Shown one piece after another: positions 1-49,516 of a stretch of 64,000 nt of DNA. Location of the stretch: positions 1 through 64,000 of the IMG/VR virus record IMGVR_UViG_3300032236_001457. One strand, given 5' to 3'. The notes beneath the pieces were generated by a model that saw only the letters and a list, made by a program, of their open reading frames with translations, made no database searches and was not told where the DNA came from. This DNA comes from a virus. Both the position numbers and the translations under genes were made by a program. Positions within the stretch are counted from its first letter, which is position 1, and each line of letters opens with the position of its first letter.

Positions 1-1638
1 AGCATCTTTATCTGCATCAGTTTTGCCAAACTTTCCAGCATCCATCTTTTTATCAATCTCACGCTTGGCATATCCTGGAACAACTTTGCGTAGAGTCTGT
101 GGTAAGCCTTCCGCCACACCTTGTTTTGATTTCAAGTAGGCTATGATTTTTTCAAGATTTTTAATTTTGACATCGTGTGCTCCATTGGCATTGAATTTTT
201 TATATTTGGCCAATTCTCTCTCGTAGTTTTTAATATTGGCAACGGTTCGGTCATCGCCTTCCGCCACACCTTGCTTTTTCTTTACAATTTCAAACTTGTG
301 CCCAAATTTTGTATGTAAAGGATGATCTAAGAATTTCTGTAGTTCTTCTTTAGCCCTTTGCCAAGAATCAAAACTGCCTGCGGCAAAGTCTTTTTCGCCA
401 TCGGGCTTAGTTCTAATAATGACATATTTTTCACCTAATTCCGGTCTATTCATGCCAGACCATGGACCTTTGATAACTTCACCTTCCGCCATACCTTGCT
501 CGTGTATGGTGTTAGGTTTGGGATTTGATAAGTTTTCAATAAATTGTAAAATTGCGTTATATTGTTGTGCGTATATTCTTGGCAGATCACTAGCCGCAGA
601 TTCTGGATCATTGTAAGCGTCACTGCCATCGTAAGCAGTATCAGTGATTGCTCTGGCTTCTTGGCTGCTTATTTTTTTACCAAGATTGTGAAGTCTAATA
701 ACTGCGTTATATAACCCTTCGGCCTTTGGGGCCCATTTTGCTACAACTTTTTGCCATTTGGGGCTTTGAGCAAACTCCTCGTCGTAATTACTGAGGCTAT
801 GCTCACCTATTAGGTCTTTGAATATGTTTAGTTCTAATAGTTCAAGAGCAGCATCTCCACTTGATATTAAGCCTTCCGCCACACCTTCATTCGACACACA
901 GTTGTTTACTCTAATGCCACCTTTGATCTTAGTGCCTTCTTTATGCTTGCCTTTCCAGCACTTGGCATCTAGGCGTTGCTTGACTTCCATCATGTTATTG
1001 CCGTGTGTTCGACACATACCACAATCTGGACAAGTCATTTCCATTTCCACACTTTCATTGTGCTTACGCTTACCGGCACAGTGAGCCCGCTGGCTAAATC
1101 CCTTTGGATGGCTACAGTTGATACTGTTCTTGTATTTTTGACTCCACCCTTCTCCCATCATTTCGTGTTGTAGGCTCTGTAGCACACTGTTGAGATAATC
1201 TGCTGCTTTAGTAATCTTGCTCTGTTGCCAAGCGTCTAGACCTTCCTCTTCACTCTTGGTCTTGATCATTGAGTGTAGTTGTTTGGCATTTTGGAAAATG
1301 CTGTGTAGTTCGCTGCCAGCCATGTTGATCTCATGATCCTGATTTTCAGCAAAGTCTTTATTCTTGTGTTTCTCGCCGCGAACCTGTTTGCTCTGTTGTT
1401 TGCGATCGGTATGCCGACCGCTACCTTTGGCTACTTTCTGAGCAGCGTGAGCAACGGGGCTACGAGGAGTAAGTTTTTGGTTAGCATCCTGGACTAGAAG
1501 ATTATCTCTGCGTTGAACCCCGCCTATTGGTTTAGATACAGAAGCAACACTTCCTGCGCTGGTTCCGCCCCCGCTGGCACTTTCTAAAACATATCTAGTT
1601 GTATCACCGTTGTTGATTTTTTTAAATTCTTTATTCAT
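1..1638 (-). CDS. Modular polyprotein-like phage protein with QGVAEG repeats (3'-truncated by window edge; not in ORF track)
   Basis: Manual translation from ATG at 1638, which overlaps the stop of 1635..1994 (ATGA): MNKEFKKINNGDTTRYVLESASGGGTSAGSV... The frame stays open to base 1 and contains four (Q/E)G(V/M)AEG linkers. Confidence 0.85.
   Translation of the reverse strand, partial: MNKEFKKINNGDTTRYVLESASGGGTSAGSVASVSKPIGGVQRRDNLLVQDANQKLTPRSPVAHAAQKVAKGSGRHTDRKQQSKQVRGEKHKNKDFAENQDHEINMAGSELHSIFQNAKQLHSMIKTKSEEEGLDAWQQSKITKAADYLNSVLQSLQHEMMGEGWSQKYKNSINCSHPKGFSQRAHCAGKRKHNESVEMEMTCPDCGMCRTHGNNMMEVKQRLDAKCWKGKHKEGTKIKGGIRVNNCVSNEGVAEGLISSGDAALELLELNIFKDLIGEHSLSNYDEEFAQSPKWQKVVAKWAPKAEGLYNAVIRLHNLGKKISSQEARAITDTAYDGSDAYNDPESAASDLPRIYAQQYNAILQFIENLSNPKPNTIHEQGMAEGEVIKGPWSGMNRPELGEKYVIIRTKPDGEKDFAAGSFDSWQRAKEELQKFLDHPLHTKFGHKFEIVKKKQGVAEGDDRTVANIKNYERELAKYKKFNANGAHDVKIKNLEKIIAYLKSKQGVAEGLPQTLRKVVPGYAKREIDKKMDAGKFGKTDADKDA
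107..888 (-). repeat. Four dispersed 17-bp direct repeats CAAGGTGTGGCGGAAGG, in frame within the CDS
   Basis: Plus-strand ccttccgccacaccttg at 107-123 and 257-273; one-mismatch copies at 482-498 and 872-888. Periods are 150, 225 and 390 bp, all multiples of 3. Confidence 0.95.
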
Positions 1639-1994
1639 GATTTCTTATTCCATTGTGATATGGGGCTCACTTTGTAAACATCTGACATTTCTTCACTGCG
1701 TTTGCTAGAGTGAGTTTTTCTGCTGTCATCACCAATTTGACCTGCGGCATATTTGATCATTTCCATTTCCGCTTCGGTATAAGGAGCCAATAGCGGATCT
1801 CCGGCGATATAACTGGTTGCCTTGGTAGGATACTCCGGAGCACCAGCAAGAGCAATACCCATTCTATAGTTTAGATACTGGTTGCCGGCATTCATGTTCT
1901 GATTGGAAAATGTTGTAACATTTTGAATGGCAGATTTGTGTTCGTCACGAATATTGTGAACACCACCTTCTGTAATAAATTCATTAGCTCTCAT
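1635..1994 (-). CDS. Hypothetical protein with capsid-targeting-like leader (MRANEFITE)
   Basis: ORF track; tightly coupled to both neighbours. Confidence 0.75.
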   Translation of the reverse strand: MRANEFITEGGVHNIRDEHKSAIQNVTTFSNQNMNAGNQYLNYRMGIALAGAPEYPTKATSYIAGDPLLAPYTEAEMEMIKYAAGQIGDDSRKTHSSKRSEEMSDVYKVSPISQWNKKS

Positions 1995-2860
1995 TATGCC
2001 ATCCTTTCTATGGTGTTTTTGACATCACCTACGGTAAAATAACTTTTACCCTTACTTTTTCCAAATGCTGGATTCTGTTGCCATACTTTGGCTTTATTTA
2101 ATCCGAACACTTCGCCGCCGTTTGCATCGCCTAACACAAAATCATCGGGTTTATCTACAGCAGCAGGCATAAATGTCATCATGTAAAGATCACCAAGATC
2201 CATGCCTGGTTGAACACCGTTCATTTTATAAAATTTATAAACATAATCTAATTGTTCTACAGCAGACATTTGTGCTAGGGCTTGTGAAGTAGTTCCTAGT
2301 GATTGAGCAGTTTTTGGCATAAATTGAATTAATCCAACTGCGCTACTGGTGCCGGCACCCTGACTCGGGCTCATACTACCGCCTGTTTCGAACTTCATGA
2401 TTCTTAATAGATTCTTCGGATCCACTCCTAGTTTCTGTCCTATTAAATTTAGTTTTTCATTAAACTCGGGGCTTTGTATAGCAGCAAGATCTTCGGCGCT
2501 AGGCCCTTGGCCTCTTAGAGCATTTCTAGCAACGTCTGCCTGTGTAGATTTGACAATGGTAATATTTCCTGCTTTTAGTGCAGAATTTAATGCAGCTATA
2601 GTAGCATCATCGGCACGACTACTAGCTGGTAATTTATTTGCTGCCTGGAATTTTTTTAATGCCGCAGCAGTTAACGGTCCTAGTATACCATCTACCCCGT
2701 CTTTCTTAGGTCCGAGATTTCCGAGATCTTCTGGTGTAGCCGCACCCAATGCTAATAAGGCTTTTTGGACATCGGCAACTTCTACTCCCTTATTACCGAG
2801 AGGAGATGCCAACGGGCCGGCTACATTGGCCTCATCTTCGAATAATTCTCTTATACGCAT
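1994..2860 (-). CDS. Peptidoglycan-binding domain plus lysozyme-like/lytic transglycosylase
   Basis: PG_binding_1-like VADVQKAL...DGILGPLTAAALKKFQ; SLT-like IMKFET...AVGLIQFMPKTA. Confidence 0.8.
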   Translation of the reverse strand: MRIRELFEDEANVAGPLASPLGNKGVEVADVQKALLALGAATPEDLGNLGPKKDGVDGILGPLTAAALKKFQAANKLPASSRADDATIAALNSALKAGNITIVKSTQADVARNALRGQGPSAEDLAAIQSPEFNEKLNLIGQKLGVDPKNLLRIMKFETGGSMSPSQGAGTSSAVGLIQFMPKTAQSLGTTSQALAQMSAVEQLDYVYKFYKMNGVQPGMDLGDLYMMTFMPAAVDKPDDFVLGDANGGEVFGLNKAKVWQQNPAFGKSKGKSYFTVGDVKNTIERMA

Positions 2861-3324
2861 TATGCTCTCTTAATACTAGAACGTAAGAACCATGCGTGTT
2901 TTTTATGAGCATCCATACGCTCGGCTAGAAAATTGCTAAGTCCATGTTCTCCTGCCGCTTCGGCAGCATCGTAATTTTTCTTCAGCACAATCTGAATTTT
3001 CTCACTGTCCAATAACAGTTCTTGAATCATTTGTTGTAGATTAGGGACTTGATTTTCGTCTTCGATACGAGTCAGCATGTTCAGTGTGTGATAACTGGTA
3101 GGCATATATCCGCCTAACTTACGAACATTTTCAGCAAATGGATCTACAGCTCCATATACTTCTTCGTAGATCTCTTCGAACAGTTTATGATATTCGTAGA
3201 AATCTGGCCCTTCAACGTTCCAATGCATCGAATGGACCTTAACGTAGAAACTAAATGTAGTAGCAAACCCTATACGAGTAAGTTGAATTAATTTATCCAT
3301 AGTATTATATTTATTATTAACCAA
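2860..3324 (-). CDS. dps: Dps family ferritin-like protein
   Basis: HWNVEGPDFYEYHKLFEEIY, D..AE ferroxidase residues, C-terminal HKKHAWFLRS. Confidence 0.9.
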   Translation of the reverse strand: MVNNKYNTMDKLIQLTRIGFATTFSFYVKVHSMHWNVEGPDFYEYHKLFEEIYEEVYGAVDPFAENVRKLGGYMPTSYHTLNMLTRIEDENQVPNLQQMIQELLLDSEKIQIVLKKNYDAAEAAGEHGLSNFLAERMDAHKKHAWFLRSSIKRA

Positions 3325-3568
3325 ACCAAAGAGTAAACCATTCTGCGGTGCCAGGCTTTATGCCCTGTTCTCTTTGTATTTGTCCTTTATTACTGCCAAC
3401 AACCGGTGTTGCCTGTCGCGCTCTATAGTCTGCCAGTCGTTCTGCTGCCCCTAATCCTCCTAAACTGGCTGCGATTTTCAGTTCATGTATGGGATCATCA
3501 GGAGCGAGATAGCAGTCATCCGCACTGTCCTGTGGAATATTACTGCTGTCTATTCTGTATTGCTTCAT
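3317..3568 (-). CDS. Hypothetical phage protein
   Basis: ORF track; overlaps both neighbours in the operon. Confidence 0.7.
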   Translation of the reverse strand: MKQYRIDSSNIPQDSADDCYLAPDDPIHELKIAASLGGLGAAERLADYRARQATPVVGSNKGQIQREQGIKPGTAEWFTLWFG

Positions 3569-6500
3569 TTACTATAATCCGATTTATCAGTGAGGCCATA
3601 ATGTTTTCAACCGACTCGCTAACTGGAATATGGTTAGACATAGTTTGGCCAATTTTCTTTTCCTCTGGTTCTTTTTTTGGAGGAGGCATAATACGATCTA
3701 GTTCGCGTTGAAACTGTTCTCTATCAGGAGCACTTTTTTTACGCTCCTTTTCTAATGCACGATTTAATCGCACCTGTGCTGGACTAGGTGGTTTCCAGAA
3801 TGATTCCTGTGTGTCCTGCTGTTTATGATGCGACTTTTCTTTAACTAAATCTCTAAGTTCGGCAGTGCTGAGCAAGTTTAATTCGGCCACTCCATATCCT
3901 GTAGCACGAGCAACGGCCCGTATCAAACGCTGGCGCAGTTGATGTTCTTCGTCCTCCACAACTGATCTTTTTTGATTAATCAGTGCTGTTAGGATTCGTT
4001 CTGCTACTGTCTCTGGTTGTTTGGCAACAATACCCATGCCTTTACGGGTTATATCCATTAGATGTTCGATCCAATCTACACCGAGTTTATTAACATCGAA
4101 TGCCTTAGACCACACAGCCAACGCCTGTTCTGGAGAATCATTTTTCAAACTGTTGCGTAGCATAGTGCCACTAACCCCTGTACCTCTAGGAGTCACTTCT
4201 AAACTTACTTTAACATGCTCATAACCTGGAAACTTATTCACCGCCTTCATTAGTGCCTGTGGCATGTTTAGATTTTTGCGATCTTCGCCGACCATAATAA
4301 CAATGTTGTCATAGCGTGGCGGTTTGCCTGGCAACGGATTGATCAATTCGTGTTTGATCTTTTGTATTAGTGATCCACCTTCCTGTGTCACGGTGCTGAT
4401 ATTTTTAGCATACTGGGGATATAGCTTATGCCATGTTTCGACCTTAACGCTGGGTGGAATAGGATCGTCTTTGCCTTCTGCATTGCCAATGAACAAGTAA
4501 GGATCACCGTGCAGTTCTCGTGCCTTATCGACAGTGTAGTTCCATAGTTCCTGGTGTCCGCGATGACCGATAAAACTGCCAATAGCAACCACTGCGGTTT
4601 TGTTAGCGTTATCCCTACCGCGATCAGTGCGGGCTGCGGCTCTAGCAGCATTTTTAGTAGCGATAAGATCTTTTTGTTTTTGACTGGTAACTTTGATAGG
4701 ACCTAGTCTGCTGTTGATAACAATGCCTTCGTATTCTGTGCCTAGTTTATCTTTGCCTACAATGTTAGGATCTTCGTCGATGGCTTTTTCTAACGCAATT
4801 TGCACAGGCTTTAATTTTTCTTCAATCTGTTGGCGTAGATCCGCACTGGCACGATCACGCTTGCCTGCTGTGCCGCTGACAATGTCTTTGAGTTCATCAA
4901 TATTGTCTAATACATTAACAATTTCTGTAACATCTAGACCTTGCTTTTGAACCAGTCTATTGCTCATAAACATGACATTGTCGCTTTGTCCTAGTTCTGC
5001 TATCTGCTGAACAGCAGCATCACCATCGGGTATTTCTTCTCCAGTGCCGCCCTCTACGATGCGGAATGGAACCAATACCAGATCAATACCTTCGGGGATT
5101 TGATCATATTCAATACCTACAAACTTTAATCCACCCGATTCTGTTTTGGTGGCAAATGGTAGGAATAACACTTCGCAGGTAACCTGCCTATCTACTAAAA
5201 AGTCTGGCCCTAACGCACTATCCACCATTTTGATAGCAGTCATCATTTCGTTGAATAGTTTGTCAAAGTTGGCGGCACGACCTAACACTTCAGGATCGGT
5301 GGTTCCTTTTTGTTTGTGATAATCTAAGAATCCTGCTTTGTATTTGGGCTCAGTGCGACTGGTGCCCATAAACGGTTTGCCCTCGGCGTCCTTACCGAAG
5401 CGTCCACCGAATCCGTCGATCTTGACATTTAATGGAATATTTTGTAAAACAAATCTGCCACCCGAGTCCTGTAGTTCATCTACTAGGTCTAAAAAGTCTG
5501 CTGGTTTTAGATCACGCAGATGAGGCATGCCTTTGCGTAGTTGTGCCTTTACTGCTGGTTGTGGTTTATCTTCTTCTGCTTCTGCTAGACCCTGTGATGC
5601 CTTGGCTTTTTTCAATGCTGCTCTAGGTTGTTTTTCTTCAGGATGTTCTTTTTTGTATGCTTCAACTTCGTAATAATCATCTTCGTAAGATTTGGCCTGT
5701 GCTATGGCCTGTGCTCGCATACTGCCCATGCCCAATTTTTCCAACATGACATCGATAGCAGCAAATTTAGTTTGAGCATCTCTTACAGGATCATCTTTGG
5801 TAATCATTTGACCACCGATTTCAAAACAGATGTCTAGGAAATCTTGCACGATGCCAGGCTTTTGTTCAGGTTTAATATATTTGTTGATTAGATCCAGTGT
5901 GCCTACAAAACTCTGCTGTAGTTGGCTGTCGTTGCCTTGGGGTTTGCGACCAAAGACCATTTCAAATTGTTCAGCAAGACTTTGAACATAAGTTCTATCT
6001 TTAGGATCAACAGGAGTCACAATAGGAATGCCATCTCGACTGCTTTCACCAGTTTCTGGGTCGGTATAAGGCACATACTTTCTGCTCATACCTCCTCCCT
6101 GTTTGCTGGCCACAGCGAATGACAACATACTGACTTCGGTCGGTTCGGGACTGACCACCATTGCTCGTGCCTTGCCGCGTCCTTCCAATTTGGCTATATA
6201 AACTTGTTGTGTGCTAGCGGCCGCTGCCAATGCTCTGTAGAGATACTTGTGGAATACTCCTTTGATACCGGCAGTGATGTCATTCCAATCGCTGCTGTGG
6301 CTGAACGCAAACCACTCGTCTGGCGTGCCAGTTTCTTCACCGTATCCACCAAACTCAAAATCTATTTGTATTTTGAAAGGCGGATCTTCAAATTGAAAAA
6401 GTGCGTTAAATTGTGCAGAGCCTTTGCTAAACCCTAAACATTTGGTATCACCAATTTGTTTTCCGGTCATTGCAGTTAGGAATTCTTCTACTTCGGGCTC

Positions 6501-7178
6501 TAATTTAGCATCAACCTGTGTATCAATATCGCCTACCTTGGGTTTATGCTTGACAAACTCGTCATCACTAATACCGGAGGTATTAAAAAAGTGTAGGCTA
6601 CTACCGCTTAGAAATTCGCGACTTTGTAATAGATTTGCTGACCATAATGGCTTTTTATATTTGGCTTGAAATACGGCACTAATATCGTGTAGTAACTTGT
6701 TTAGTAGTCCTACCATGTATGTGCGATTATGAACCTTGAGATTAATTTCCTGTGCTTGATGTGGTTGAGTAGGATCTTCGGGATTAGGTAGTTCTAAATT
6801 ACCACCTTCCATTAATTTGTATTTGTCGCGTTTAATATCGTCGTTATAGTGATCATACAATCGATCACACAGTTCTTCACGCATTTCCAATGGGAATAGT
6901 TTTCCTAACTTGCCAGTTAGTTTATTTTTATGATAGAATTCTTTACAGCCCTTTTCTACCATAGGCATGAATTCTTTGACCAAACGACTTTTATTTTCTT
7001 TTTTGTTTTGTTGTTGACGTTGTATTTTCTTTGCTAGCGGATGAAAATATTCTTTATGTAGACGATCGTGCTCTAGTATGTATTGAAACAGTTCATTGGC
7101 TATTTCTTGATCATCATGATCTCGATCAGTTGGTGATTTAATATCTAGGCTTTTGCCAAAAAATTCAGTTAAAAACAT
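3540..7178 (-). CDS. Multidomain protein: Pol-beta-like nucleotidyltransferase, ATP-dependent (RNA) ligase-like domain and HIGH-class cytidylyl/adenylyltransferase
   Basis: GSS...GDIDTQVD...QIDFE; VKIDG...CEVLF...EGIVI...IKV; GSFIGHRGH...VGEDR...SGT. Confidence 0.75.
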   Translation of the reverse strand: MFLTEFFGKSLDIKSPTDRDHDDQEIANELFQYILEHDRLHKEYFHPLAKKIQRQQQNKKENKSRLVKEFMPMVEKGCKEFYHKNKLTGKLGKLFPLEMREELCDRLYDHYNDDIKRDKYKLMEGGNLELPNPEDPTQPHQAQEINLKVHNRTYMVGLLNKLLHDISAVFQAKYKKPLWSANLLQSREFLSGSSLHFFNTSGISDDEFVKHKPKVGDIDTQVDAKLEPEVEEFLTAMTGKQIGDTKCLGFSKGSAQFNALFQFEDPPFKIQIDFEFGGYGEETGTPDEWFAFSHSSDWNDITAGIKGVFHKYLYRALAAAASTQQVYIAKLEGRGKARAMVVSPEPTEVSMLSFAVASKQGGGMSRKYVPYTDPETGESSRDGIPIVTPVDPKDRTYVQSLAEQFEMVFGRKPQGNDSQLQQSFVGTLDLINKYIKPEQKPGIVQDFLDICFEIGGQMITKDDPVRDAQTKFAAIDVMLEKLGMGSMRAQAIAQAKSYEDDYYEVEAYKKEHPEEKQPRAALKKAKASQGLAEAEEDKPQPAVKAQLRKGMPHLRDLKPADFLDLVDELQDSGGRFVLQNIPLNVKIDGFGGRFGKDAEGKPFMGTSRTEPKYKAGFLDYHKQKGTTDPEVLGRAANFDKLFNEMMTAIKMVDSALGPDFLVDRQVTCEVLFLPFATKTESGGLKFVGIEYDQIPEGIDLVLVPFRIVEGGTGEEIPDGDAAVQQIAELGQSDNVMFMSNRLVQKQGLDVTEIVNVLDNIDELKDIVSGTAGKRDRASADLRQQIEEKLKPVQIALEKAIDEDPNIVGKDKLGTEYEGIVINSRLGPIKVTSQKQKDLIATKNAARAAARTDRGRDNANKTAVVAIGSFIGHRGHQELWNYTVDKARELHGDPYLFIGNAEGKDDPIPPSVKVETWHKLYPQYAKNISTVTQEGGSLIQKIKHELINPLPGKPPRYDNIVIMVGEDRKNLNMPQALMKAVNKFPGYEHVKVSLEVTPRGTGVSGTMLRNSLKNDSPEQALAVWSKAFDVNKLGVDWIEHLMDITRKGMGIVAKQPETVAERILTALINQKRSVVEDEEHQLRQRLIRAVARATGYGVAELNLLSTAELRDLVKEKSHHKQQDTQESFWKPPSPAQVRLNRALEKERKKSAPDREQFQRELDRIMPPPKKEPEEKKIGQTMSNHIPVSESVENIMASLINRIIVNEAIQNRQQ

Positions 7179-7187
7179 AATTATTCC

Positions 7188-7607
7188 TTACCAAGCGCGA
7201 CACGACCAGTATCTAGCCTTAGTTCTAGGTCCGGGATTTTCACAATGATGGCGAGCTCTGAAACTTTTACGATGTCCGGGCAGATGTTTTTTAATGCTGA
7301 GTTTTTTATCACCAAAATTTACCTTTTTAACATTGCCTGTGCTGGGATCTTTTACATAGACCTTGCTTTTTTTAACATCGCCTTTCATTGGTTTGCCTAG
7401 AGGAACGGTGCGTCCATGGTATTTGGCTTCTTCTAAGGGAATATATGCTAGTGCTGTGGCATCTATAGCTAGGATAGGACCGTCACTTTTTAGGCCAATT
7501 ACGGTGGTTTCTAGAACAAAATCACCAAGTTCTAGTTCAAACACATCACCTTCTTGGATGGTTTCTTCAACGAAATCAAGTCCATCGAAAAGATCAACGA
7601 TACGCAT
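7188..7607 (-). CDS. Conserved hypothetical phage protein with basic C-terminal domain (KKVNFGD...RKSFRARHHC...YWSC)
   Basis: ORF track; preceded by GGAG RBS and ATAAATA. Confidence 0.75.
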   Translation of the reverse strand: MRIVDLFDGLDFVEETIQEGDVFELELGDFVLETTVIGLKSDGPILAIDATALAYIPLEEAKYHGRTVPLGKPMKGDVKKSKVYVKDPSTGNVKKVNFGDKKLSIKKHLPGHRKSFRARHHCENPGPRTKARYWSCRAW

Positions 7608-8051: not shown

Positions 8052-8743
8052 AAGATTTCCTGATCGGCAACCTTATTTATGCTATATCTAGGAACAAACT
8101 CTTCTACTCTGCGGATCTTCCCACCCGCTGCCATAGTAATCATCATGACCATGTTGCGATCGCGGGCATAAAAATAACAGGCACTGGGCCAAAATCCTCG
8201 TTTACCGGAAAAGTTCTTTCGTGTTGCATTAGGAATCCCGATACAGTTCTCGTCATACTTTTCTGCCCATTCAAGCATATTGGATGCAGTATCGGTATCC
8301 ATGTCCTTGAACACTACTCTGAACTTATACCTGTGTTTAGGAAGATGATTACATAACACGATCTTGCTATCGCCCTCCATGATCTCAAGTTCTGCGGTAT
8401 CAGCTGGCTCTGTCACACTGATAACATAATCTGCAAGTTCTGTGGCCATTTCCTGATACAGCACCGGATCCTTGATAAAAATACTAATTTGATCATGCTC
8501 TATTCGTAATTTTATACCAAGTGCTATATAGTGCTCTAATTTGATTAGATAATCCAGCAACAATAACGGATCGATATTCTTTCTTTTTGACCAATGCCGA
8601 TTGATGTTAGGAGTGATACACCATTTTTTTAGGTATTCAATTCCGCGAGCCCTTAACAGCGTGGCTCCTACCATACCAGTTGAGATCTTGTAGGGCCACT
8701 CTCCGTAGAACAGTTTATTGGTCTTCAGTTTCTTCGGTATCAT
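8027..8743 (-). CDS. Hypothetical protein
   Basis: ORF track, 238 aa, in operon after clpA. Confidence 0.7.
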   Translation of the reverse strand: MIPKKLKTNKLFYGEWPYKISTGMVGATLLRARGIEYLKKWCITPNINRHWSKRKNIDPLLLLDYLIKLEHYIALGIKLRIEHDQISIFIKDPVLYQEMATELADYVISVTEPADTAELEIMEGDSKIVLCNHLPKHRYKFRVVFKDMDTDTASNMLEWAEKYDENCIGIPNATRKNFSGKRGFWPSACYFYARDRNMVMMITMAAGGKIRRVEEFVPRYSINKVADQEILCQHLAKV

Positions 8744-10988
8744 TTTTAACCTTGCTGACAGGAAGGATATCTACAATATTGAGTTTGAGTTCGGTTCCAT
8801 CGACACTGAGTTCTACAATACCGCCATTAGCTAGACTGCCAAATAGGATTTCACGGCTTAATGGTTTCTTGATCTGCTCATCGATAACACGCTGCAAAGG
8901 TCTGGCACCCATTTTGCTATCAAACCCTCGATCGACCAAATATGCCAGTGCTAGAGCATTTGGTTTGACATGAATATTTTTATCTTTAACTAAACTATTG
9001 AGATCATCGATAAACTTCTTAACAATCTTAGTCATTGTATTCTTGTCCAACTTACCAAAGCGGATAACCCCGTCTAGCCGATTGCGGAATTCTGGAGCAA
9101 AGAATTTATTAACAGCATCTTTTGGATCGCCGTCTCGTTCCAGACTACCAAATCCTACGCCGTTCTTTTCAGCATCAGCAGCACCCAAGTTGCTGGTCAT
9201 AATGATGATAGCACTACGAGCATCTGCTTTCTTACCATTGCTACCGGTAATAAATCCATTGTCCATGATCTGTAGTAGAAGTGTTAGCACATCTGGGTGT
9301 GCTTTTTCTACTTCGTCTAGCAACAACACACAATGTGGAGTTTCCTGCAGACTAGTAATTAGTTGTCCAGCATTTTCTTCGAAGCCTACATATCCTGGAG
9401 GACTACCGATGAACTTGGCCACGCTGTGTTTTTCTTGGAACTCACTCATGTCAAACCTAATCAGTTTGATACCCATGTTAAGTGCCAGTTGTTTAGCAGC
9501 CTCGGTCTTGCCTACGCCAGTTGGTCCTACGAACAAGAAACTACCTACTGGTTTGTTCAGACTCTTCAATCCGGCTTGAGCAATAAACACCTTATCAAGT
9601 AGACTTTCAATAGCCTTTTCCTGCCCATACACTTTGGATTTCATGTTCTTTTCCAGTGATTGTGTATTGACATTTTCCTTGTTGTTGATCTGGTCGAAGC
9701 TGAGGTTAGCAAGTTTTGCTACTTCAAAAACGATTTCCTCGTGATCCACAATGCCGCCTTCTTGATCTTTCACTTTAAATCTAGCACAGGCACAGTCAAT
9801 CAGATCAATGGCCTTGTCTGGTAGCTTCTTATCAGTTAGATATTTCACGCTGTATTTGACACTGTCAATTACGGCCTGGTTAGTAATTTTAACCTTGTGA
9901 TGACGCTCGTAGTATTTTTTAATACCTTTAACAATCTTAATTGCAGTATCCTCATCGGGCTCATCGACAACTACACGCTGGAAACGACGCATAAGAGCAC
10001 GATCTTTTTCAAAGTGTTTGCGGTATTCTTCCCAAGTAGTGCTGGCAATAACTTTAATAGTGCCTTTGCCCAGTGCGGATTTCAACATATTGGCCATGTC
10101 GTTGCTGCTGCCATTAGCAGCACCGGCACCATTCATCATGTGTGCTTCGTCAATAAAAAGAATAGATTTGCCTTTCTTTTCAATAGCACCAATAACTGCC
10201 TTTAATCGTTCTTCAAAATCACCACGATATTTGCTGCCTGCTAGCAGTGCGCTGATGTCTAGACTATAGACATTGTGCTCTTGAATAAATTTAGGAACAT
10301 TACCTTCAAAGATTTTACGAGCCAATCCTTCGGCAATAGCAGTTTTACCGACACCGGGGTCGCCGATCAGAATAGCGTTGGCTTTGGTACGACGAGCCAA
10401 CACCAATTCAATTTCTTCAATCTCCTTGTCTCGCCCAATAACAGGATCAATTTTTTTAGACTTGGCTTTAGCAGTTAGATTAGTGCAGAACTGAACAATC
10501 ATGCGTTCTAGCTGTGCTGTTTTAGAATCAGTTGCTGCTGCTTCTTCATCTTCGCGAACTAGCTCTTTCTTAACAAAGTTAATGAATTTGTCTTTGTCAA
10601 TATTGGCCTTTCTAATGAAAAAGCTAGCATGACTTTTCTTTTCAGAAAACATGCTGAGGAAACAATCAACTGGTTCGATGATTTGCCTGCCACTGAACAA
10701 GACCTGTGTAAAAGCACGATTCAACATGCGATCTACAGTGTTGGTCTTTTTGGGTTTTTCTTGTTCAGGATTTACGATTTCCTGTAGATTGTTTTTGATA
10801 TAACTGTCTAGATCTTCTTTGAGAACATTTACATCTGCTCCAAATGCGGTTAGTATTTCAGCAAAGGAATTATTATTGACCATGCTGTATAAAAAGTGTT
10901 CCAATGTAATATATTCATGGTCGTATACACTGGCTATTTTAACAGCATTTTCAAAAATGCTCTCGAGATCTTTATTTGGTTCTAACAT
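8715..10988 (-). CDS. clpA: ATP-dependent Clp protease ATP-binding subunit ClpA
   Basis: Clp N-domain, two Walker A motifs (GDPGVGKT, GPTGVGKT), KYRGDFEERLK, ClpP-docking VGFG loop, GARPLQR. Confidence 0.95.
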   Translation of the reverse strand: MLEPNKDLESIFENAVKIASVYDHEYITLEHFLYSMVNNNSFAEILTAFGADVNVLKEDLDSYIKNNLQEIVNPEQEKPKKTNTVDRMLNRAFTQVLFSGRQIIEPVDCFLSMFSEKKSHASFFIRKANIDKDKFINFVKKELVREDEEAAATDSKTAQLERMIVQFCTNLTAKAKSKKIDPVIGRDKEIEEIELVLARRTKANAILIGDPGVGKTAIAEGLARKIFEGNVPKFIQEHNVYSLDISALLAGSKYRGDFEERLKAVIGAIEKKGKSILFIDEAHMMNGAGAANGSSNDMANMLKSALGKGTIKVIASTTWEEYRKHFEKDRALMRRFQRVVVDEPDEDTAIKIVKGIKKYYERHHKVKITNQAVIDSVKYSVKYLTDKKLPDKAIDLIDCACARFKVKDQEGGIVDHEEIVFEVAKLANLSFDQINNKENVNTQSLEKNMKSKVYGQEKAIESLLDKVFIAQAGLKSLNKPVGSFLFVGPTGVGKTEAAKQLALNMGIKLIRFDMSEFQEKHSVAKFIGSPPGYVGFEENAGQLITSLQETPHCVLLLDEVEKAHPDVLTLLLQIMDNGFITGSNGKKADARSAIIIMTSNLGAADAEKNGVGFGSLERDGDPKDAVNKFFAPEFRNRLDGVIRFGKLDKNTMTKIVKKFIDDLNSLVKDKNIHVKPNALALAYLVDRGFDSKMGARPLQRVIDEQIKKPLSREILFGSLANGGIVELSVDGTELKLNIVDILPVSKVKNDTEETEDQ

Positions 10989-10989
10989 A

Positions 10990-11487
10990 TTACTTGTGCT
11001 TCCTCTTTTGTGTTTTTTTAACTGCTAACGCCCATTTAAGAGTGCTAACTCTATCTTGAAATACAATACCTTCTAAATGGTCTAACTCATGTAAAAAACA
11101 CCTACATTGATAGTCTTCAAACTCACCTTCTTGCCATGCTCCTGTTCTATCCTGCCATCTAGCACGAATCTTGCGTGGACGATTAATTTTAACATAGATA
11201 TTGGGAAAACTCAAGCAGCCTTCCTCTAGTTCGACTAAATCCTCTGTATTGGCCACAACCATGGGATTAAAAAACGCCTGTGCCAGTTTGGGCAGTCGAA
11301 CATGACCCATGGCAAATACACGGGTCGCTATGCCCATTTGGTTGGCAGCCAGTCCAATACCATTGTTGGCCAACATGTTATCTACTAGTAATCGTTCCAA
11401 CTCTACTGGATCCATTATAGGATTGTCAAAGTCAAATTCTGGGCATGTCGATCTCAATGCCTCATTAGGAAAAGTTAATATTGTCAT
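10990..11487 (-). CDS. def: Peptide deformylase
   Basis: GIGLAANQ, EGCLS and HELDHLEG motifs. Confidence 0.95.
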   Translation of the reverse strand: MTILTFPNEALRSTCPEFDFDNPIMDPVELERLLVDNMLANNGIGLAANQMGIATRVFAMGHVRLPKLAQAFFNPMVVANTEDLVELEEGCLSFPNIYVKINRPRKIRARWQDRTGAWQEGEFEDYQCRCFLHELDHLEGIVFQDRVSTLKWALAVKKTQKRKHK

Positions 11488-11495
11488 ATTGGTAT

Positions 11496-12344
11496 TTAAC
11501 GAAACACTTGAGACAGTGCGGCTCGTTGGAAGTCGGTTAGATTGGTTGGTATGCTAATGTTTATAGTCATCAACATTCGACCACGAAATCTAGAATCATT
11601 GATATTAGGCATACCGTGGCCCTGTGCTGCTAGTATTTGTCCTGGCTGTGTTCCAGGATTAATGGTAACCGCTAGGGTTCTTCCATCAATAGTATCTATG
11701 TCAACGGTTTTTCCTAACATAGCATCAACACAGGTAATATCTATATCTCTAACAAGATCATCGCCTTGTCTTTGAAAGACTGGGTGTTCTAATATATTCA
11801 CAGTGAGATGTATATCTCCTCTAGGTATATTAGCATAACTATCATCGCCCATTCCACTTAATCTCAGTGTGGTATTATCCTGTATACCAGCGGGTATTTT
11901 TATTTCAAGTGTTTGATTACGGCCACTGGGCAGTGTAAGATTAGCTAATAATTCTTTGCCGTGGAATGCTTCTTCTAGTGAGATTTGTGTTTGTATGTTT
12001 AGTGTTCGATTACGGGGACCCTGTTGGCGCCGTTGACCGAATATATCTCCAAATGGGTTTTGGCCACCAAACGCATGAGCAAATATATCTTCAAACCCTG
12101 GAGGCATTCCTCCGCCTGTATGAAAGTGGAATCCACCTGGCATACCTTGCGGTTGGGGATTGTCGTATTGTGATCGTTTATCTGGATCACTCAGTGTGTC
12201 GTATGCTGCCTGTATTTCTTGGAAGCGTTGGGTATCGCCGCCCTTATCCGGATGATTTTGGCTAGCTAAACGACGATATGCTCGTTTAATATCTTCTGAG
12301 CTGGCATTTCGATCAACGCCGAGTATTGAGTAGTAATCTGACAT
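11496..12344 (-). CDS. dnaJ: DnaJ-class (CbpA-like) chaperone without Zn finger
   Basis: J domain with HPD, G/F-rich region, DnaJ C-terminal domain. Confidence 0.92.
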   Translation of the reverse strand: MSDYYSILGVDRNASSEDIKRAYRRLASQNHPDKGGDTQRFQEIQAAYDTLSDPDKRSQYDNPQPQGMPGGFHFHTGGGMPPGFEDIFAHAFGGQNPFGDIFGQRRQQGPRNRTLNIQTQISLEEAFHGKELLANLTLPSGRNQTLEIKIPAGIQDNTTLRLSGMGDDSYANIPRGDIHLTVNILEHPVFQRQGDDLVRDIDITCVDAMLGKTVDIDTIDGRTLAVTINPGTQPGQILAAQGHGMPNINDSRFRGRMLMTINISIPTNLTDFQRAALSQVFR

Positions 12345-23297: not shown

Positions 23298-25751
23298 TTA
23301 TGTATTAATTTTAGCAGATAGAGCATCAACCTTGGCACTGAGTTCCTGAATAGCTTTAATTAATGGTGCTATAAGTTCTTCATATCCAATGCTTAGTACA
23401 TCATCCCCGCCTTTAATAGAGTGGTCTTGATATCCACCAAAATCTACACCTTTGTTGTCCATTACAGATTTAACTTCTTGTGCAATTAATCCATGATGAT
23501 ATCTGGTTCTAATCTTACTGCCATCATGCACGAGATTAGACATTTTTACTGACTCTTGCCAGGCCGACATAGCAGAGTTATATGCTTCTAATGCAGAGTT
23601 GTATTCGGCAGTTTGTTCTTCAGTAGGATCAACAGGCAACACTGGTTTGGATAGATCGGGTGCCGGTTGTTTATAATCTTCCCGCATATCCCATTTATAA
23701 TCTACTGGTCTTAGTGCTAGAATAAAATCTAACCCTAATTGTGTGTCACGAATTTCTGTTTTATCTCGTTGATCCGATCTGATTGACAATGCTGCGTAAG
23801 CATATGGAGTTGTGCTGGAATCTCCAAGTTGAACCTGATTATCCCCTGTAACCGCTGTATTGGCTCCTACTCCAGTACAATTATTATATGCAGTCATTGA
23901 GTACATGCTACTGAATCCCAATGCGGTATTATAAGAACTGACAAGATTGTTTTGTAAGGCGCCTACTCCGAGTGCTGAGTTATTACTTCCATTAGTTAAT
24001 GAATATAATGATTTATATCCAACTGATGCATTATTAGCACCGCCAATAAAGGTGAAAAGTGATTGAACTCCTACTGCTGTATTCTTATCCCCAGTTGTAG
24101 TTGTTGATCCACCGTATAATGATTGGTTACCTACTGCTGTATTATTGCTAGCTTCTGAATAGTATCCAGCACTGCTGCCTACAAATGTTCCGTTAGATCC
24201 TGAAACATTAGACAGTCCGGCATTCATTCCTATTCCTACATTATCTGATCCACTTGTAGAATTTCTAAGAGAAGAAGATCCGCCTACTGCTGTATTATTT
24301 ACACCGGTTGTTAGTGCTATAAGTGCATTAGCACCTATTGCTATATTAGAAGAATCTGCTGCTCCGCTAGCACCACCGAGTCCGATAGCAATAGCATTAG
24401 CAACAGTTAATGTCTTATTTCCAGAACTCCATCTAAGTCCTGAATCGCCTGTTAATCCTGATCCATTTCCATAGGCTACATAGCCGCTAACAAGAGCAGG
24501 TCCTGAGCTACCTGCTCCACTTGGGCCGCTTGGTCCCTGTGGTCCCTGCGCTCCAGTATTACCTTGTGGACCCTGTGGTCCTTGTGATCCGGCAACTCCT
24601 TGTGGCCCGGTTGGTCCTGAACTGCCTACCCCACTTGGACCCTGTGGACCAGTTACTCCTTGTGGCCCCTGTGGACCTTGCACACCACCGACTCCAACTC
24701 CTGTTGGTCCTAGCGGCCCTTGTGGTCCTGCTACGCCTTGTGGGCCTTGCGGTCCAGCAACTCCTTGTGGTCCTTGTGGCCCGGAACTTCCTGCACTAGC
24801 AGCCAATAGATCGCTACCGACACCAGTGTTAGCGGACGACAGATCGATGAATACACCTCTATTACTACCGCCTGTTTCAAAAATTCTTAATTTATTTCTA
24901 AAGATATCTATAGTAACACCAGTATCAAGTGTGGTGTTGGTAGCTGCTTTGTTTAATCTTAATTCACCACCTTCGTCTCCGGATTGGCTAGAAGAATATA
25001 AAAATGGAGTTGTTAGTAACCCACTAAACGGTCTGTAAAATAGTCCGGCGTCGACGGCTATGTCATTGTATGCATTAGCACTGGCAGACATTGTAACATA
25101 GAGATCGCTGTTGGCATTGCTTTCTGCAGTATATATCTTAGTTGTTTTATCTGCATTACCTACAACTACAGTGGATGTATTGACCCATGTAGCAGTGCTG
25201 GCATTGCTCTGTAAAATATATCCGGCAGACCCGATAGGTATAAAAGCTGTTGTATTAGTAGCACTCTGTATAGGAATGCTTCCACCTGTGCCACCTGCAA
25301 TATTAGCAGGAGTTGATGGGCCGCTCGGTCCCTGTGGTCCTTGAACACCTGCTCCTGTCGGTCCAACTGGTCCTTGTGGCCCTGTTGCTCCTTGCGGTCC
25401 TGTTGCTCCTTGCGGTCCTTGTGGCCCTTGTGGCCCTGCAACTCCTTGTGGTCCTTGTGGTCCAGTTACTCCTTGCGGTCCCTGTGGTCCAGTGACACCC
25501 TGCGGTCCTTGTGGCCCTGTAACTCCTTGCGGTCCCTGTGGACCTGTAACTCCCTGCGGTCCTTGTGGCCCAGTTACACCTTTTGGGCCTGTTGGTCCTA
25601 CTGGTCCGGATGTTGCTAATAACGAAGCGGTTTGTGGTACTGTTAGATATTGATAAACAGCAGAATCCTGCACAACAAATTTAGTTTCGCCCTCAGTGGG
25701 ATTGGTCAGTTGTGGCAACGAAGATATATTGATGTCAGGGCGGAATGTCAT
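23298..25751 (-). CDS. Collagen-repeat tail fibre with beta-helix/YadA-like head and intramolecular chaperone (peptidase S74)
   Basis: GPQ triplets, NNTAVG repeats, SDQRDK...LRPVDYKW...HGLIAQEV...[15 protein letters not shown]. Confidence 0.85.
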
Positions 25752-26150: not shown

Positions 26151-27044
26151 TTATGTTACATAAAAAACAATTCTACCTTGGCGACCTTGTTGACCATGCC
26201 TTGTTCCGTTGCCACTAGCTGGACCTTGCCCACCTCGACCGCCGCCGCCGTAGTAAGTTGGAAGTGTGCCATAATCAGTGCTCCCAAAATTACCACCTTG
26301 CCCACCATCGCTTGAATAATAAGAGTAAGTTCCACCGGCTAAAGTATAGGTACTGCCAACTCCGCCTTGACCTGCGTTGTTAAGCGTATCATATCCAACT
26401 CCACCGTTTCCGCCACCACCGCCGCCATTACCTGATCCGCCGTAATCCCCGCCGGCTCCTCCAGAATTACCATTTCCGCTATTACCACCGGTGCCTGTTA
26501 AATAGACTCCATTAACAGACGAAACTGAACCATATGTTCCGCCATATCCTCCTGTACAAGATACACTGCCTCCGCCGGAGAATCCTGACATACTGCTGGC
26601 ACCGCCTTGGGATCCATTACCTACTGCATTACCGTATGCCCCTCCGTCGCCTACTGTTAAACTTAAACTGCTGGTTCCTGACAATGAAAGAGAGAAATAA
26701 TAAGCCTGACCGCCACCGCCGCCTCCCCCTCGTGAAGGAATAGTTCCGCCGGTATTATTTGCATTTGATGCACCGCCCCCGCCACCGCCGCCCGCAACAC
26801 AAATTGCTTCTATAGTGCTAGCACCGCTAGGCTTGGACCAGCTAAATGTGCCTACGGTAACATAATCATATAAAGTAGGAGTAAACGCACTCTTCCCTAA
26901 AAAATCCTGCATACTGGTAGGCAAAGGATTTAATCCGGCTAGGAAAGATGCATATGCTAGCCCTCCGGATAATCCAGGTCCGACCGCTGGAAACTCGGCC
27001 TGTATCGCTAATAAATCAATCGGTAATGAATTAGTTAATGCCAT
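26151..27044 (-). CDS. Glycine-rich adhesin-like protein (gp38-like)
   Basis: Short N-domain ending SMQDFLGKS, multiple polyglycine motifs; directly downstream of a chaperone-bearing fibre. Confidence 0.65.
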
Positions 27045-45431: not shown

Positions 45432-45640
45432 TTCCGGTCCTCTTCGTTAATTGTTTCACTATTATAAATGACGGTGCCGTCTGTGTCAAGAACTTCGTAT
45501 ACCAGAGGTTCTGGGCCCAATGCGGATCTCAAGGAGGAGATGGCCTGTTCGGCTACGATTCTTCCTTGGGATCCAGGTTTGAATGCCACAATGAGCCATT
45601 CAAGAGCCTCCAGGGCTTCTCGCATGGCCTCTGTGCTCAT
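45428..45640 (-). CDS. Hypothetical protein
   Basis: ORF track; ATGA-coupled. Confidence 0.6.
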   Translation of the reverse strand: MSTEAMREALEALEWLIVAFKPGSQGRIVAEQAISSLRSALGPEPLVYEVLDTDGTVIYNSETINEEDRK

Positions 45641-45807: not shown

Positions 45808-45808
45808 T

Positions 45809-49484: not shown

Positions 49485-49516
49485 GATTCAATTCCGTTTT
49501 TACACTGTATGAATAC

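What the first reader, a model, noticed from the sequence alone, without database searches (positions are those of the whole stretch)
3540..7178. One protein fusing three unrelated nucleotidyl-transfer folds
Seen: Pol-beta-type GS...DxD...D (near 6510-6610), ligase motifs I/III/IV/V with KIDG (near 5415) and EGIVI, and a HIGH-type HRGH domain (near 4560). Glu linkers (LMEGG, QGLAEA, VVEDE) resembling those of the neighbouring polyprotein bound several modules. Known: phages counter tRNA/RNA-cleaving defences with RNA ligases and end-healing or CCA-type enzymes, and counter NAD-depleting defences with NMNAT-like enzymes. Inference: this is a packaged anti-defence repair unit (RNA repair and/or NAD/nucleotide restoration) or a protein-nucleotidylation system of unknown substrate.
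Basis: partly seen in the sequence, partly recalled or inferred. Interest (0 to 1): 0.8.

Follow-up and report, generated by a model that had tools for sequence, protein, structure and literature searches.

The report
Head-packaged triple nucleotidyltransferase polyprotein
A giant T4-type phage encodes one 1212-residue protein that strings together a polymerase-X-like enzyme, an RNA-ligase-like enzyme and an NMNAT-like enzyme behind a T4-style head-targeting leader and protease cut sites, so the enzymes are probably loaded into the capsid and injected with the DNA; what they act on is still untested.

Summary

- **Folds.** Confident AlphaFold models (pLDDT 94.8 and 89.8) give three unrelated nucleotidyl-transfer folds:
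  - D1: palm plus thumb like family-X polymerases.
  - D2: an Rnl2/Rnl5/REL1-like ligase domain with no OB fold.
  - D3: a HIGH-type transferase nearest NMNAT, NadD and PPAT.
- **Catalytic residues.** They are invariant across the aligned homologues.
- **Processing.**
  - The N-terminus resembles the T4 Alt leader.
  - [LIV]-x-Glu sites lie exactly at the module borders (E124|GGN, E533|A, E1075|D).
  - A relative's record carries a gp21-type protease beside a gp23-type capsid gene.
  - Four consecutive genes here carry the same kind of leader.
- **Virion evidence.** The D1 homologue of Campylobacter phage IBB_35 was found in virions by mass spectrometry.
- **New here.**
  - The mature D1 N-terminus Gly-Gly-Asn is kept in 187 of 189 homologues, made either by cleavage or by Met removal.
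  - Xanthomonas phage BUDD has D1, D2 and a HIGH transferase as separate, leaderless neighbouring genes.

Best reading: an injected kit that extends and seals broken polynucleotide ends and makes NAD+. The substrates are inferred, not shown. The scan found this family before on other DNA.

The parts
3540..7178 (-). Whole ORF, 1212 aa (P0001): polyprotein made of leader, D1, linker, D2-D3 and tail
   Evidence: More than 650 homologues and 862 cluster representatives.
6807..7178 (-). Leader or propeptide, residues 1-124. It starts MFLTEFF and ends KLME|GGN. This is the long form; most homologues have a 12-22 aa leader.
   Evidence: The T4 Alt N-terminus MELITELFDE was read from the T4 record.
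5649..6806 (-). D1, residues 125-510: Pol-beta-superfamily transferase with a family-X-like palm and thumb. Mature N-terminus is GGN. Key residues: G192 S193, D217 D219, D273 E275, K306, K311.
   Evidence: Model pLDDT 94.8. Foldseek: pol beta and lambda, E from 4e-4. VIA: Pol mu, lambda, beta and TdT, Z 7.4-8.2 over 170-190 aa. Invariant residues.
5577..5588 (-). Linker cleavage motif L531-A-E533|A534 between D1 and D2
   Evidence: [LIV]-x-E|[AD] is kept in all 22 aligned homologues, although the linker varies by up to about 90 aa.
4629..5552 (-). D2, residues 543-850: ligase-type covalent nucleotidyltransferase domain without an OB fold. Motif I K586-I-D-G, motif III E669, motif IV E817-G-I-V, motif V K829.
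   Evidence: Model pLDDT 89.8. VIA: NgrRnl Z 10.4 over 193 aa, REL1 10.0 over 206 aa, T4 Rnl2 9.4, DNA ligases 8.6-9.2. Foldseek: Trl1, Rnl3 and LigIV.
4026..4604 (-). D3, residues 859-1051: HIGH-type (HUP) nucleotidyltransferase. H872-R-G-H875 and S1003-G-T-x-L-R1008.
   Evidence: VIA: NadM NMNAT Z 12.4 and 12.3, M. jannaschii NMNAT 12.1, NadD 11.9, PPAT 11.8, FAD synthetase 10.6. phrog_3041 'cytidyltransferase' E 2.9e-8. FAD_syn 15.3 bits, below the cut-off.
3951..3962 (-). Candidate cleavage motif V-V-E1075|D1076 after D3
   Evidence: A [LIV]-x-E is kept at this place in most long homologues, less strictly than E124 and E533.
3543..3950 (-). Variable C-terminal tail, residues 1076-1212. It ends in a conserved 28-aa peptide (nt 3543-3626, motif PVSExVEN).
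   Evidence: The peptide lies at the extreme C-terminus of 29 of 128 full-length homologues, whatever the tail length. Other homologues carry HD_4, DUF6321, DUF6886 or LysM in the tail.
1..1638 (-). Neighbouring polyprotein (P0268, cut by the contig end) with repeated G[VM]AE|G sites
1635..2860 (-). Two further leader-bearing genes: 1635-1994 (MRANEFITE|GG) and 1994-2860 (MRIRELFE|D, PG_binding_1 plus SLT transglycosylase)
7188..7607 (-). Upstream leader-bearing gene (starts MRIVDLF), 139 aa

Best explanation
P0001 is a capsid-targeted polyprotein of a T4-type jumbo phage.

**Inferred from sequence and relatives**
- The N-terminal leader takes the protein into the prohead core.
- A gp21-type prohead protease cuts after E124, E533 and E1075.
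- This releases (i) D1, a family-X-polymerase-like nucleotidyltransferase whose mature N-terminus is Gly-Gly-Asn, (ii) D2-D3, a ligase-type adenylyltransferase joined to an NMNAT-like HIGH transferase, and (iii) a variable tail.
- The products stay in the head and enter the cell with the DNA.

**Inferred mechanism**
- D1 adds one or a few nucleotides to 3'-OH ends.
- D2 seals 3'-OH/5'-phosphate breaks through a Lys586-AMP intermediate.
- D3 joins AMP to a phosphorylated small molecule, most likely NMN to give NAD+.
- Together they would act at time zero as a repair kit against defence nucleases (broken tRNA or RNA, possibly nicked phage DNA) and against NAD+ depletion.

**My odds**

| Claim | Probability |
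|---|---|
| Packaging and processing | about 0.8 |
| All three domains active | about 0.75 |
| Joint repair of polynucleotide ends | about 0.45 |
| RNA rather than DNA, given repair | about 0.55 |
For: **Folds and residues**
- D1 model pLDDT 94.8 and D2-D3 model pLDDT 89.8.
- Family-X polymerases match D1 over 170-190 aa at Z 7.4-8.2.
- Nick-sealing RNA ligases match D2 at Z 9.4-10.4, and NMNAT, NadD and PPAT match D3 at Z 11.8-12.4.
- GS, DxD and D; KxDG, E, EG and K; HxGH and SxTxxR are all invariant.

**Packaging**
- The leader MFLTEFF resembles T4 Alt MELITELF.
- Short-leader homologues read M-x-L-x-[DE]-[FL]-F ... [LIV]-x-E|GGN.
- E533 is invariant in a variable linker.
- A relative's record, G002, has a Peptidase_S77 gp21-like gene (E 9e-28), a scaffold rich in LAE sites and a gp23-like capsid gene (E 6e-83).
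- Only 5 of 201 window ORFs match the leader pattern, and 4 of them lie side by side at 1635-7607.
- IBB_35 gene 1-56 is a D1 homologue with the leader MKLSELMFILE|GGN. It is among the 38 virion proteins found by ESI-MS/MS, with 17% coverage (PMC3322345).
- The T4 rules for CTS targeting and gp21 cleavage come from PMC9026906.

**Functional link between the modules**
- Xanthomonas phage BUDD has leaderless D1, an unknown 333-aa gene, D2 and a CTP_transf_like gene in a row.
- D3 and the BUDD enzyme hit the same phrog_3041.
- D2-D3 also occurs as a free-standing leaderless protein.

**Precedent**
- RlaP Pol-beta transferases work with RNA ligases in jumbo phages and add 1-2 NMP to damaged RNA (PMC7824862, PMC12776372).
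Against: - No substrate has been tested.
- D1 matches are middling (Z about 8) and tie with TUTases, PAPs and OAS over the roughly 100-aa core.
- D1 is not RlaP by Pfam, and D2 is not recognised by the Rnl2 Pfam model or by hhalign against T4 Rnl2.
- Motif V lacks the second Lys.
- No polynucleotide kinase or phosphatase, KptA or NadV was found. The five records searched are only 17-31% complete, so this is weak.
- D1 often occurs alone, as in the Campylobacter and Vibrio phages and in 4 of 80 loci. The fusion may therefore partly serve packaging only.
- The prohead protease was not found in this window's own 102-kb fragment.
Confidence: 0.5

Rival explanations
1. DNA version: the injected enzymes mend the phage's own genome, or join its ends, on entry. 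D1 acts as a gap-filling or end-extending family-X-type polymerase and D2 as the nick sealer. This would resemble the packaged Pol X plus ligase of African swine fever virus (from my own knowledge, not checked here), or NHEJ.
For: The longest and best D1 alignments are to Pol mu, lambda, beta and TdT, palm plus thumb. DNA ligases score within about 1.5 Z of the RNA ligases for D2. A ferritin/Dps-like gene is a conserved neighbour of the block here and in G004.
Against: D2 has no OB domain, which DNA ligases and capping enzymes carry, and its top matches are RNA nick-sealing ligases. D1 lacks the 8-kDa and helix-hairpin-helix DNA-binding parts of family X, because the alignments begin at pol beta residue 134. 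This reading gives D3 no obvious role.
Confidence: 0.2
2. The three enzymes are unrelated cargoes joined only so that one leader loads them all. After cleavage they act on different targets, for example D3 alone restoring NAD+ and D1 alone modifying some host RNA or protein.
For: The modules are separated by protease sites. Tails carry swapped extra modules such as HD_4, DUF6321 and LysM. D1 alone is common and is packaged alone in IBB_35. The neighbouring gene is also a bead-on-string polyprotein.
Against: BUDD keeps D1, D2 and a HIGH transferase as adjacent leaderless genes, at only 24-26% identity. D2-D3 has no cut site between its halves and also occurs as a free two-domain protein. The triple fusion is the rule: 74 of the best 80 loci.
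Confidence: 0.17
3. D1 is not a repair enzyme but a signalling or modifying transferase of the cGAS/OAS/CD-NTase, MenT or AMPylase kind. On entry it would make or cap a nucleotide signal, or nucleotidylate a host protein or tRNA.
For: OAS2, cGLR, CdnE/G, MenT1, TglT and small alarmone synthetases appear at Z 5-7. Pol-beta transferases in injected polyvalent proteins were proposed to modify proteins (PMC5512222).
Against: These matches cover only the roughly 100-aa core or have rmsd 8-9 A, whereas family-X matches also cover the thumb. The association with a ligase domain points to polynucleotide ends.
Confidence: 0.08
4. The protein is not packaged. It is a cytoplasmic multi-enzyme, and the Glu motifs and leader-like start are coincidence.
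For: No protease or capsid gene lies in this window's own fragment. Leaderless forms exist in BUDD and Vibrio phages.
Against: E|GGN occurs in 165 of 189 homologues and E533 is invariant. Leaders cluster on neighbouring genes. A relative carries a gp21-type protease. A D1 homologue was found in virions by MS.
Confidence: 0.05

Closest known systems
T4 internal head proteins IPI-III and Alt (CTS-targeted, gp21-processed, ejected with the DNA)
   Same: A short N-terminal leader like that of Alt. [LI]-x-Glu cleavage at the leader end and near the C-terminus. A gp21-type protease and gp23-type capsid gene in a relative. An enzyme cargo meant to act at the start of infection.
   Different: The cargo is three nucleotidyl-transfer enzymes rather than an ADP-ribosyltransferase or a restriction inhibitor. 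It is a multi-site polyprotein, and here the propeptide is 124 aa long.
RlaP (PF10127) plus Rnl-type RNA ligase repair pairs of jumbo phages and bacteria
   Same: A Pol-beta-fold transferase associated with a ligase-fold enzyme. The logic is to restore lost nucleotides and then seal.
   Different: D1 gives no RlaP Pfam match and looks like family X with a thumb. D2 gives no Rnl1 or Rnl2 Pfam match. The pair is fused, packaged and joined to a HIGH transferase. No healing kinase or phosphatase is seen.
Nick-sealing RNA ligases: T4 Rnl2, trypanosome REL1, Naegleria NgrRnl and Deinococcus DraRnl (Rnl5)
   Same: Nucleotidyltransferase fold at Z 9.4-10.4. KxDG lysine, motif III and IV glutamates, motif V lysine. 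No OB fold C-terminal to the domain.
   Different: No detectable sequence similarity (hhalign probability 0.13). There is an insertion of about 150 aa between motifs III and IV. The second motif V lysine is Thr. The C-terminal partner domain is an apparently active HIGH transferase.
NadM/NadR-type NMNAT of phage NAD+ salvage (NARP2, KVP40 NatV)
   Same: HIGH fold nearest to NadM NMNAT (Z 12.4), with HxGH and SxTxxR motifs.
   Different: No Nudix or kinase partner, and no NadV found in the partial records. The glycine-rich loop before HxGH is one residue shorter. PPAT, NadD and FMNAT score within about 1-2 Z.
Polyvalent proteins of phages and conjugative elements (Iyer et al. 2017)
   Same: Several disparate enzymatic domains in one polypeptide that is delivered with the DNA.
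   Different: Targeting is by a T4-type leader and protease sites, not by MuF, portal or metallopeptidase hubs. That survey did not report RNA-ligase domains in such proteins.

Membership tests
Pol-beta nucleotidyltransferase superfamily | hG[GS] ... [DE]h[DE]h ... h[DE]h signature on a palm fold | tested here: met
   G192-S193, D217-x-D219 and D273 are invariant. The palm matches at Z 6-8. The GS-to-DxD spacer is 23 aa, longer than usual.
Family X DNA polymerases (pol beta, lambda, mu, TdT) | 8-kDa dRP-lyase domain and helix-hairpin-helix fingers N-terminal to the palm | tested here: not met
   Mature D1 begins about 65 aa before the GS motif. Structural alignments start at pol beta residue 134 and pol lambda residue 371. 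No family-X Pfam hit even at E <= 1.
Family X DNA polymerases (pol beta, lambda, mu, TdT) | Palm followed by a thumb subdomain | tested here: met
   170-190 residues align over model residues 5-301 with the palm plus thumb of Pol mu, lambda, beta and TdT. Z 7.4-8.2, rmsd 3.6-4.5 A. Foldseek probability about 1, E from 4e-4.
RlaP (PF10127) | Match to the family profile | tested here: not met
   No Pfam hit for P0001 at E <= 1. No PF10127 match in the window's own record, which contains this gene.
Covalent nucleotidyltransferases (ATP/NAD+ ligases, capping enzymes) | Motif I KxDG lysine, with motifs III, IV and V on the ligase fold | tested here: met
   K586-I-D-G, E669, E817-G and K829 are invariant. 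Fold Z 8.6-10.4 to RNA and DNA ligases. The second motif V lysine is absent (Thr831).
DNA ligases and mRNA capping enzymes | OB-fold domain after the nucleotidyltransferase domain | tested here: not met
   D2 is followed directly by a basic helix and the Rossmann-like D3 (secondary structure; aligned ranges).
Rnl2 family (PF09414) | Match to the family profile, or to T4 Rnl2 | tested here: not met
   No PF09414 hit. hhalign of A3 against T4 Rnl2 gives probability 0.13. Fold similarity only.
HIGH (cytidylyltransferase-like) nucleotidyltransferases | HxGH and ISxTxxR-type motifs on a HUP Rossmann fold | tested here: met
   H872-R-G-H875 and S1003-G-T-x-L-R1008 are invariant. Z 10-12.4 to NMNAT, NadD, PPAT and FMNAT. 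phrog_3041 E 2.9e-8. Pfam FAD_syn reaches only 15.3 bits against a cut-off of 27.
NMNAT of phage NAD+ salvage (NadM/NadR with NadV) | Co-occurrence with NadV (NAPRTase family), and a Nudix or kinase partner domain | tested here: inconclusive
   No PF04095 match in five records, each 17-31% complete. No Nudix or kinase domain in P0001.
T4-type CTS-targeted internal head proteins | N-terminal leader resembling a CTS, ending in [LI]-x-Glu | tested here: met
   MFLTEFF ... LME|GGN. Short-leader homologues have 12-22 aa. T4 Alt leader read from NC_000866.
T4-type CTS-targeted internal head proteins | gp21-type (Peptidase_S77) prohead protease in the same phage | tested here: inconclusive
   Found in relative G002, which carries a 61%-identical homologue, at E 9e-28 next to gp22- and gp23-like genes. 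Not found in this window's own 102-kb fragment, which is 27% complete.
T4-type CTS-targeted internal head proteins | Physical presence of the processed protein in virions | not testable with these tools
   Indirect evidence only. The D1 homologue, IBB_35 gene 1-56, was detected in virions by ESI-MS/MS with 17% coverage (PMC3322345 supplement).

The most novel reading that the evidence does not exclude
The free alpha-amino group of the invariant mature N-terminus Gly-Gly-Asn of D1 is catalytic, for example as a Schiff-base nucleophile of an AP or dRP lyase. It would replace the missing 8-kDa lyase domain of family-X polymerases. D1 plus D2-D3 would then be a complete excise-fill-seal repair machine delivered by the virion. 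A second unexcluded twist is that D2 is charged by NAD+ and D3 recycles the released NMN with ATP, giving a ligase that keeps working in an NAD+-depleted cell.
Probability: 0.1. Interest if true: 0.85.

Novelty: new variant of a known kind. Interest (0 to 1): 0.62.

Why it matters
Injected phage proteins act before any phage gene is expressed, so they decide the outcome against fast defences. The known injected enzymes are mostly ADP-ribosyltransferases, RNA polymerases, nuclease inhibitors and lysins.

A widespread family that delivers a polymerase-like enzyme, a ligase-like enzyme and an NMNAT-like enzyme would add polynucleotide repair and cofactor synthesis at time zero to that list. The family has more than 650 homologues and 349 IMG/VR loci.

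It would also give three uncharacterised enzyme families an experimental handle. The stand-alone D1 in cultured Campylobacter, Vibrio and Xanthomonas phages is one such handle. It may also shed light on the still unknown role of Rnl2-type ligases in phages.

Tried and rejected
- **Sequence searches that gave little.**
  - Pfam on the whole protein gave only a sub-threshold FAD_syn hit.
  - phmmer and profile searches of PDB sequences found only the HxGH stretch of RibF.
  - Megablast against phage records found nothing.
- **hhalign of the D2-D3 alignment.**
  - Against T4 Rnl2: probability 0.13.
  - Against E. coli LigA residues 1-320: probability 0.29. Only the motif IV stretch aligned, so there is no support for an NAD+-type ligase.
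- **Complex prediction.** Complex prediction of D1 against D2-D3 returned no answer (score 0.00). This is no evidence either way.
- **Family searches in five partial records.**
  - NadV, Rnl2 and RlaP were not found.
  - A 17-bit KptA-like hit in G004, near the homologue, was not confirmed by hmmscan of that 860-aa ORF. I dropped it.
- **The BUDD 333-aa gene between D1 and D2.** It has no Pfam or PHROG family and no homologue in this window.
- **Other checks.** There are no tRNA genes in the window. The gene-poor-looking stretch at 45.4-51.7 kb is an array of small ORFs.
- **Tools unavailable.**
  - The atlas search with D1 gave only unnamed viral clusters.

Full report
**The object.** The window is the first 64 kb of a 101,834-base IMG/VR virus fragment, estimated at 27% of its genome. 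The same protein is also on record on a 352-kb contig. Tail-fibre, baseplate, ClpB-like, deformylase and other phage families show it is a large myovirus-type phage. ORF 3540-7178(-) is open for 1212 aa.
- G192-S193, D217-x-D219, D273/E275
- K586-I-D-G, E669, E817-G, K829
- H872-x-G-H875, S1003-x-T-x-x-R1008

**Family.** More than 650 proteins match at E <= 0.001 in the 90% clusters, and 862 cluster representatives match in the 50% library. IMG/VR holds 349 loci with a D1 relative. The conserved core is residues 115-1065. The N-terminal 124 aa and the tail after about residue 1075 vary.
- Of the best 80 IMG/VR loci, 74 carry D1-D2-D3 in one frame, 2 are cut by a contig end and 4 have D1 alone.
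- D1 alone also occurs in Campylobacter Firehammerviruses and in Vibrio phages of about 191-195 kb. D1 and D2 occur as separate genes in Xanthomonas phages BUDD and X1.
- D2-D3 occurs as a free-standing protein of 498-601 aa.

**Folds.** Sequence methods see almost nothing: a sub-threshold FAD_syn hit, phrog_19290 for D1 and phrog_12709 for D2.
- **D1 (residues 125-510).** The model, built with 51 sequences, has pLDDT 94.8.
  - Foldseek ranks DNA polymerases beta and lambda first (E from 4e-4, probability about 1).
  - VIA-align gives Pol mu, lambda, beta and TdT at Z 7.4-8.2 over 170-190 residues, model residues 5-301. That span is palm plus thumb.
  - TUTases, poly(A) polymerases and OAS/cGLR tie at Z 6-7.8, but only over the roughly 100-residue core.
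  - D1 lacks the 8-kDa and helix-hairpin-helix parts of family X, because alignments begin at pol beta residue 134.
  - These Z values are middling, so I call D1 family-X-like and not a member.
  - In BFVD the fold recurs in many uncharacterised phage proteins, including one of Agrobacterium phage Atu_ph07.
- **D2-D3 (residues 536-1070).** The model has pLDDT 89.8.
  - D2 (model residues 5-307) matches NgrRnl (Z 10.4 over 193 aa), REL1 (10.0 over 206 aa) and T4 Rnl2 (9.4). It matches a minimal DNA ligase (9.2), Rnl3 (8.8), Trl1 (8.7), T4 Rnl1 (8.6) and DNA ligases (8.6-8.7) (Foldseek).
  - There is no OB domain.
  - D3 (model residues 324-516) matches NadM NMNAT (12.4 and 12.3), archaeal NMNAT (12.1), NadD (11.9), PPAT (11.8) and FAD synthetase (10.6).

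**Packaging and processing.** Several lines agree.
1. The start MFLTEFF resembles T4 Alt, MELITELFDE, which I read from the T4 record. Alt is a head-packaged, gp21-processed, injected enzyme (PMC9026906).
2. Most homologues have a 12-22 aa leader of the form M-x-L-x-[DE]-[FL]-[FL] ... [LIV]-x-E, followed by GGN.
3. The D1-D2 linker varies in length by up to about 90 aa, yet always keeps [LIV]-x-E|[AD]. A [LIV]-x-E also follows D3.
4. Record G002, whose homologue is 61% identical, has in a row a Peptidase_S77 gp21-like gene (E 9e-28), a scaffold protein full of LAE sites, and a gp23-like capsid protein (E 6e-83) with YLAE|S after its propeptide.
5. In this window, only 5 of 201 ORFs of 60 aa or more match a leader pattern, and 4 of them are adjacent:
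   - 1635-1994 (MRANEFITE|GG)
   - 1994-2860 (a PG_binding plus SLT wall hydrolase)
   - P0001 itself
   - 7188-7607

   The next gene, 1-1638, is a polyprotein with four G[VM]AE|G sites.
6. There is experimental support for the family. Campylobacter phage vB_CcoM-IBB_35 gene 1-56 (39251-40417, 44,446 Da) is the D1 homologue (E 1e-14). It starts MKLSELMFILE|GGN. It is listed among the 38 virion proteins identified by ESI-MS/MS, with 17.0% coverage (PMC3322345 supplement).

- **The mature N-terminus of D1.** Of 189 D1-bearing proteins, 165 have Glu|GGN and 22 begin Met-GGN with no leader. The leaderless group includes Vibrio phage pv27 and Xanthomonas phage BUDD. Gly-Gly-Asn is therefore the mature N-terminus whichever way it is produced, which argues that the free N-terminus matters to the enzyme. 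It lies a few residues before the segment that superposes on pol beta from residue 134 on, just before the palm. I could not inspect the coordinates.
- **Unfused synteny in BUDD.** BUDD has, as adjacent leaderless genes, D1 (26% identity), an unknown 333-aa gene, D2 (24% identity, KxDG and EG motifs kept) and a CTP_transf_like enzyme (PF01467, E 1.7e-6). That enzyme falls in the same phrog_3041 as D3. This is an independent association of the three activities outside the packaging context, so the fusion is unlikely to be a mere loading convenience.

**Mechanism.**
- **Shown.** Folds, conserved catalytic residues, leader and site conservation, a T4-type head protease in a relative, and virion presence of a D1 homologue.
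- **Inferred.** Cleavage at E124, E533 and E1075, ejection with the DNA, and the activities themselves.
- **Closest working precedent.** The pairing of RlaP Pol-beta transferases with RNA ligases in jumbo phages. RlaP adds one or two NMPs to damaged RNA 3' ends before ligation (PMC7824862, PMC12776372).

I therefore favour an extend-and-seal activity on broken polynucleotides, with D3 most likely making NAD+ (PMC9503650 for phage NMNATs).

The choice between RNA and DNA remains open. The ligase side leans to RNA, because there is no OB fold and the top matches are Rnl2, Rnl5 and REL1. The polymerase side leans to family X.

Counter-points:
- No healing enzymes, NadV or KptA were found. The records are very incomplete, so this is weak.
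- There is no sequence-level link to Rnl2 or LigA.
- D1 frequently occurs alone.

**Other features.** A 28-aa peptide with the motif PVSExVEN ends 29 of 128 full-length homologues, whatever the tail length. This recalls the C-terminal processing of Alt. Tails of homologues carry HD_4, DUF6321, DUF6886 or LysM modules.

**Novelty.** The scan met this family before on other genomes and reached the same packaging reading (e1-5368419 and e1-5368430; stand-alone D1 in e1-5936852 and e1-5936866). I tested that reading independently here. I add the IBB_35 virion evidence, the GGN rule and the BUDD synteny. In the papers I could search, the polyvalent-protein survey did not report RNA ligase domains in injected proteins (PMC5512222), and I found no description of this fusion. 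I rate it a new variant of known kinds: T4-type injected internal proteins, and transferase-plus-ligase repair pairs.

**Limits.** The complex prediction gave no answer.

Noticed in passing
window 1-7607 (-): A block of consecutive genes with T4-type leaders: polyprotein 1-1638, then 1635-1994, 1994-2860 (PG_binding_1 plus SLT wall hydrolase), P0001 and 7188-7607. It looks like an internal or ejected-protein cassette.
   Followed up: partly
window 1-1638 (-), P0268: A polyprotein cut by the contig end, with no Pfam family and four G[VM]AE|G sites. It also has a box KGGIRVNNCV that recurs just before the conserved C-terminal peptide of P0001 homologues.
   Followed up: partly
window 2860-3324 (-); also L012:12741-13181: A ferritin/Dps-like gene (PF00210, E 5e-23) sits next to the block. 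It is conserved at the same place in a distant relative, where a lysozyme-type gene follows it. It has no clear leader.
   Followed up: partly
window 3543-3626 (-): A 28-aa C-terminal peptide (motif PVSExVEN, amphipathic) lies at the extreme end of 29 of 128 homologues, whatever the tail length. It may be a second targeting or anchoring signal, or a C-terminal propeptide.
   Followed up: partly
window 8715-12344 (-): A proteostasis cluster just upstream: a 757-aa ClpA/ClpB-like double-AAA protein (phrog_4871, E 2e-243), a peptide deformylase, and a protein whose N-terminus reads like a J-domain (YYSILGV ... HPD).
   Followed up: no
window 23298-25751 and 27031-29436 (-): Collagen-like repeat tail-fibre genes in a stretch of raised G+C (0.46-0.51, against about 0.40 elsewhere).
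   Followed up: no
window 52098-52694 (-): The fifth ORF of the window with a leader-like start (MRINELT), far from the block.
   Followed up: no
window 45400-51700 (-): A dense array of about 20 small ORFs (40-118 aa) on one strand, typical of early genes. The window has no tRNA genes.
   Followed up: partly
L014:6849-7850 (Xanthomonas phage BUDD): A 333-aa gene wedged between the D1 and D2 homologues. It has no Pfam or PHROG family and no counterpart in the window, and may be a fourth component of the unfused system.
   Followed up: partly
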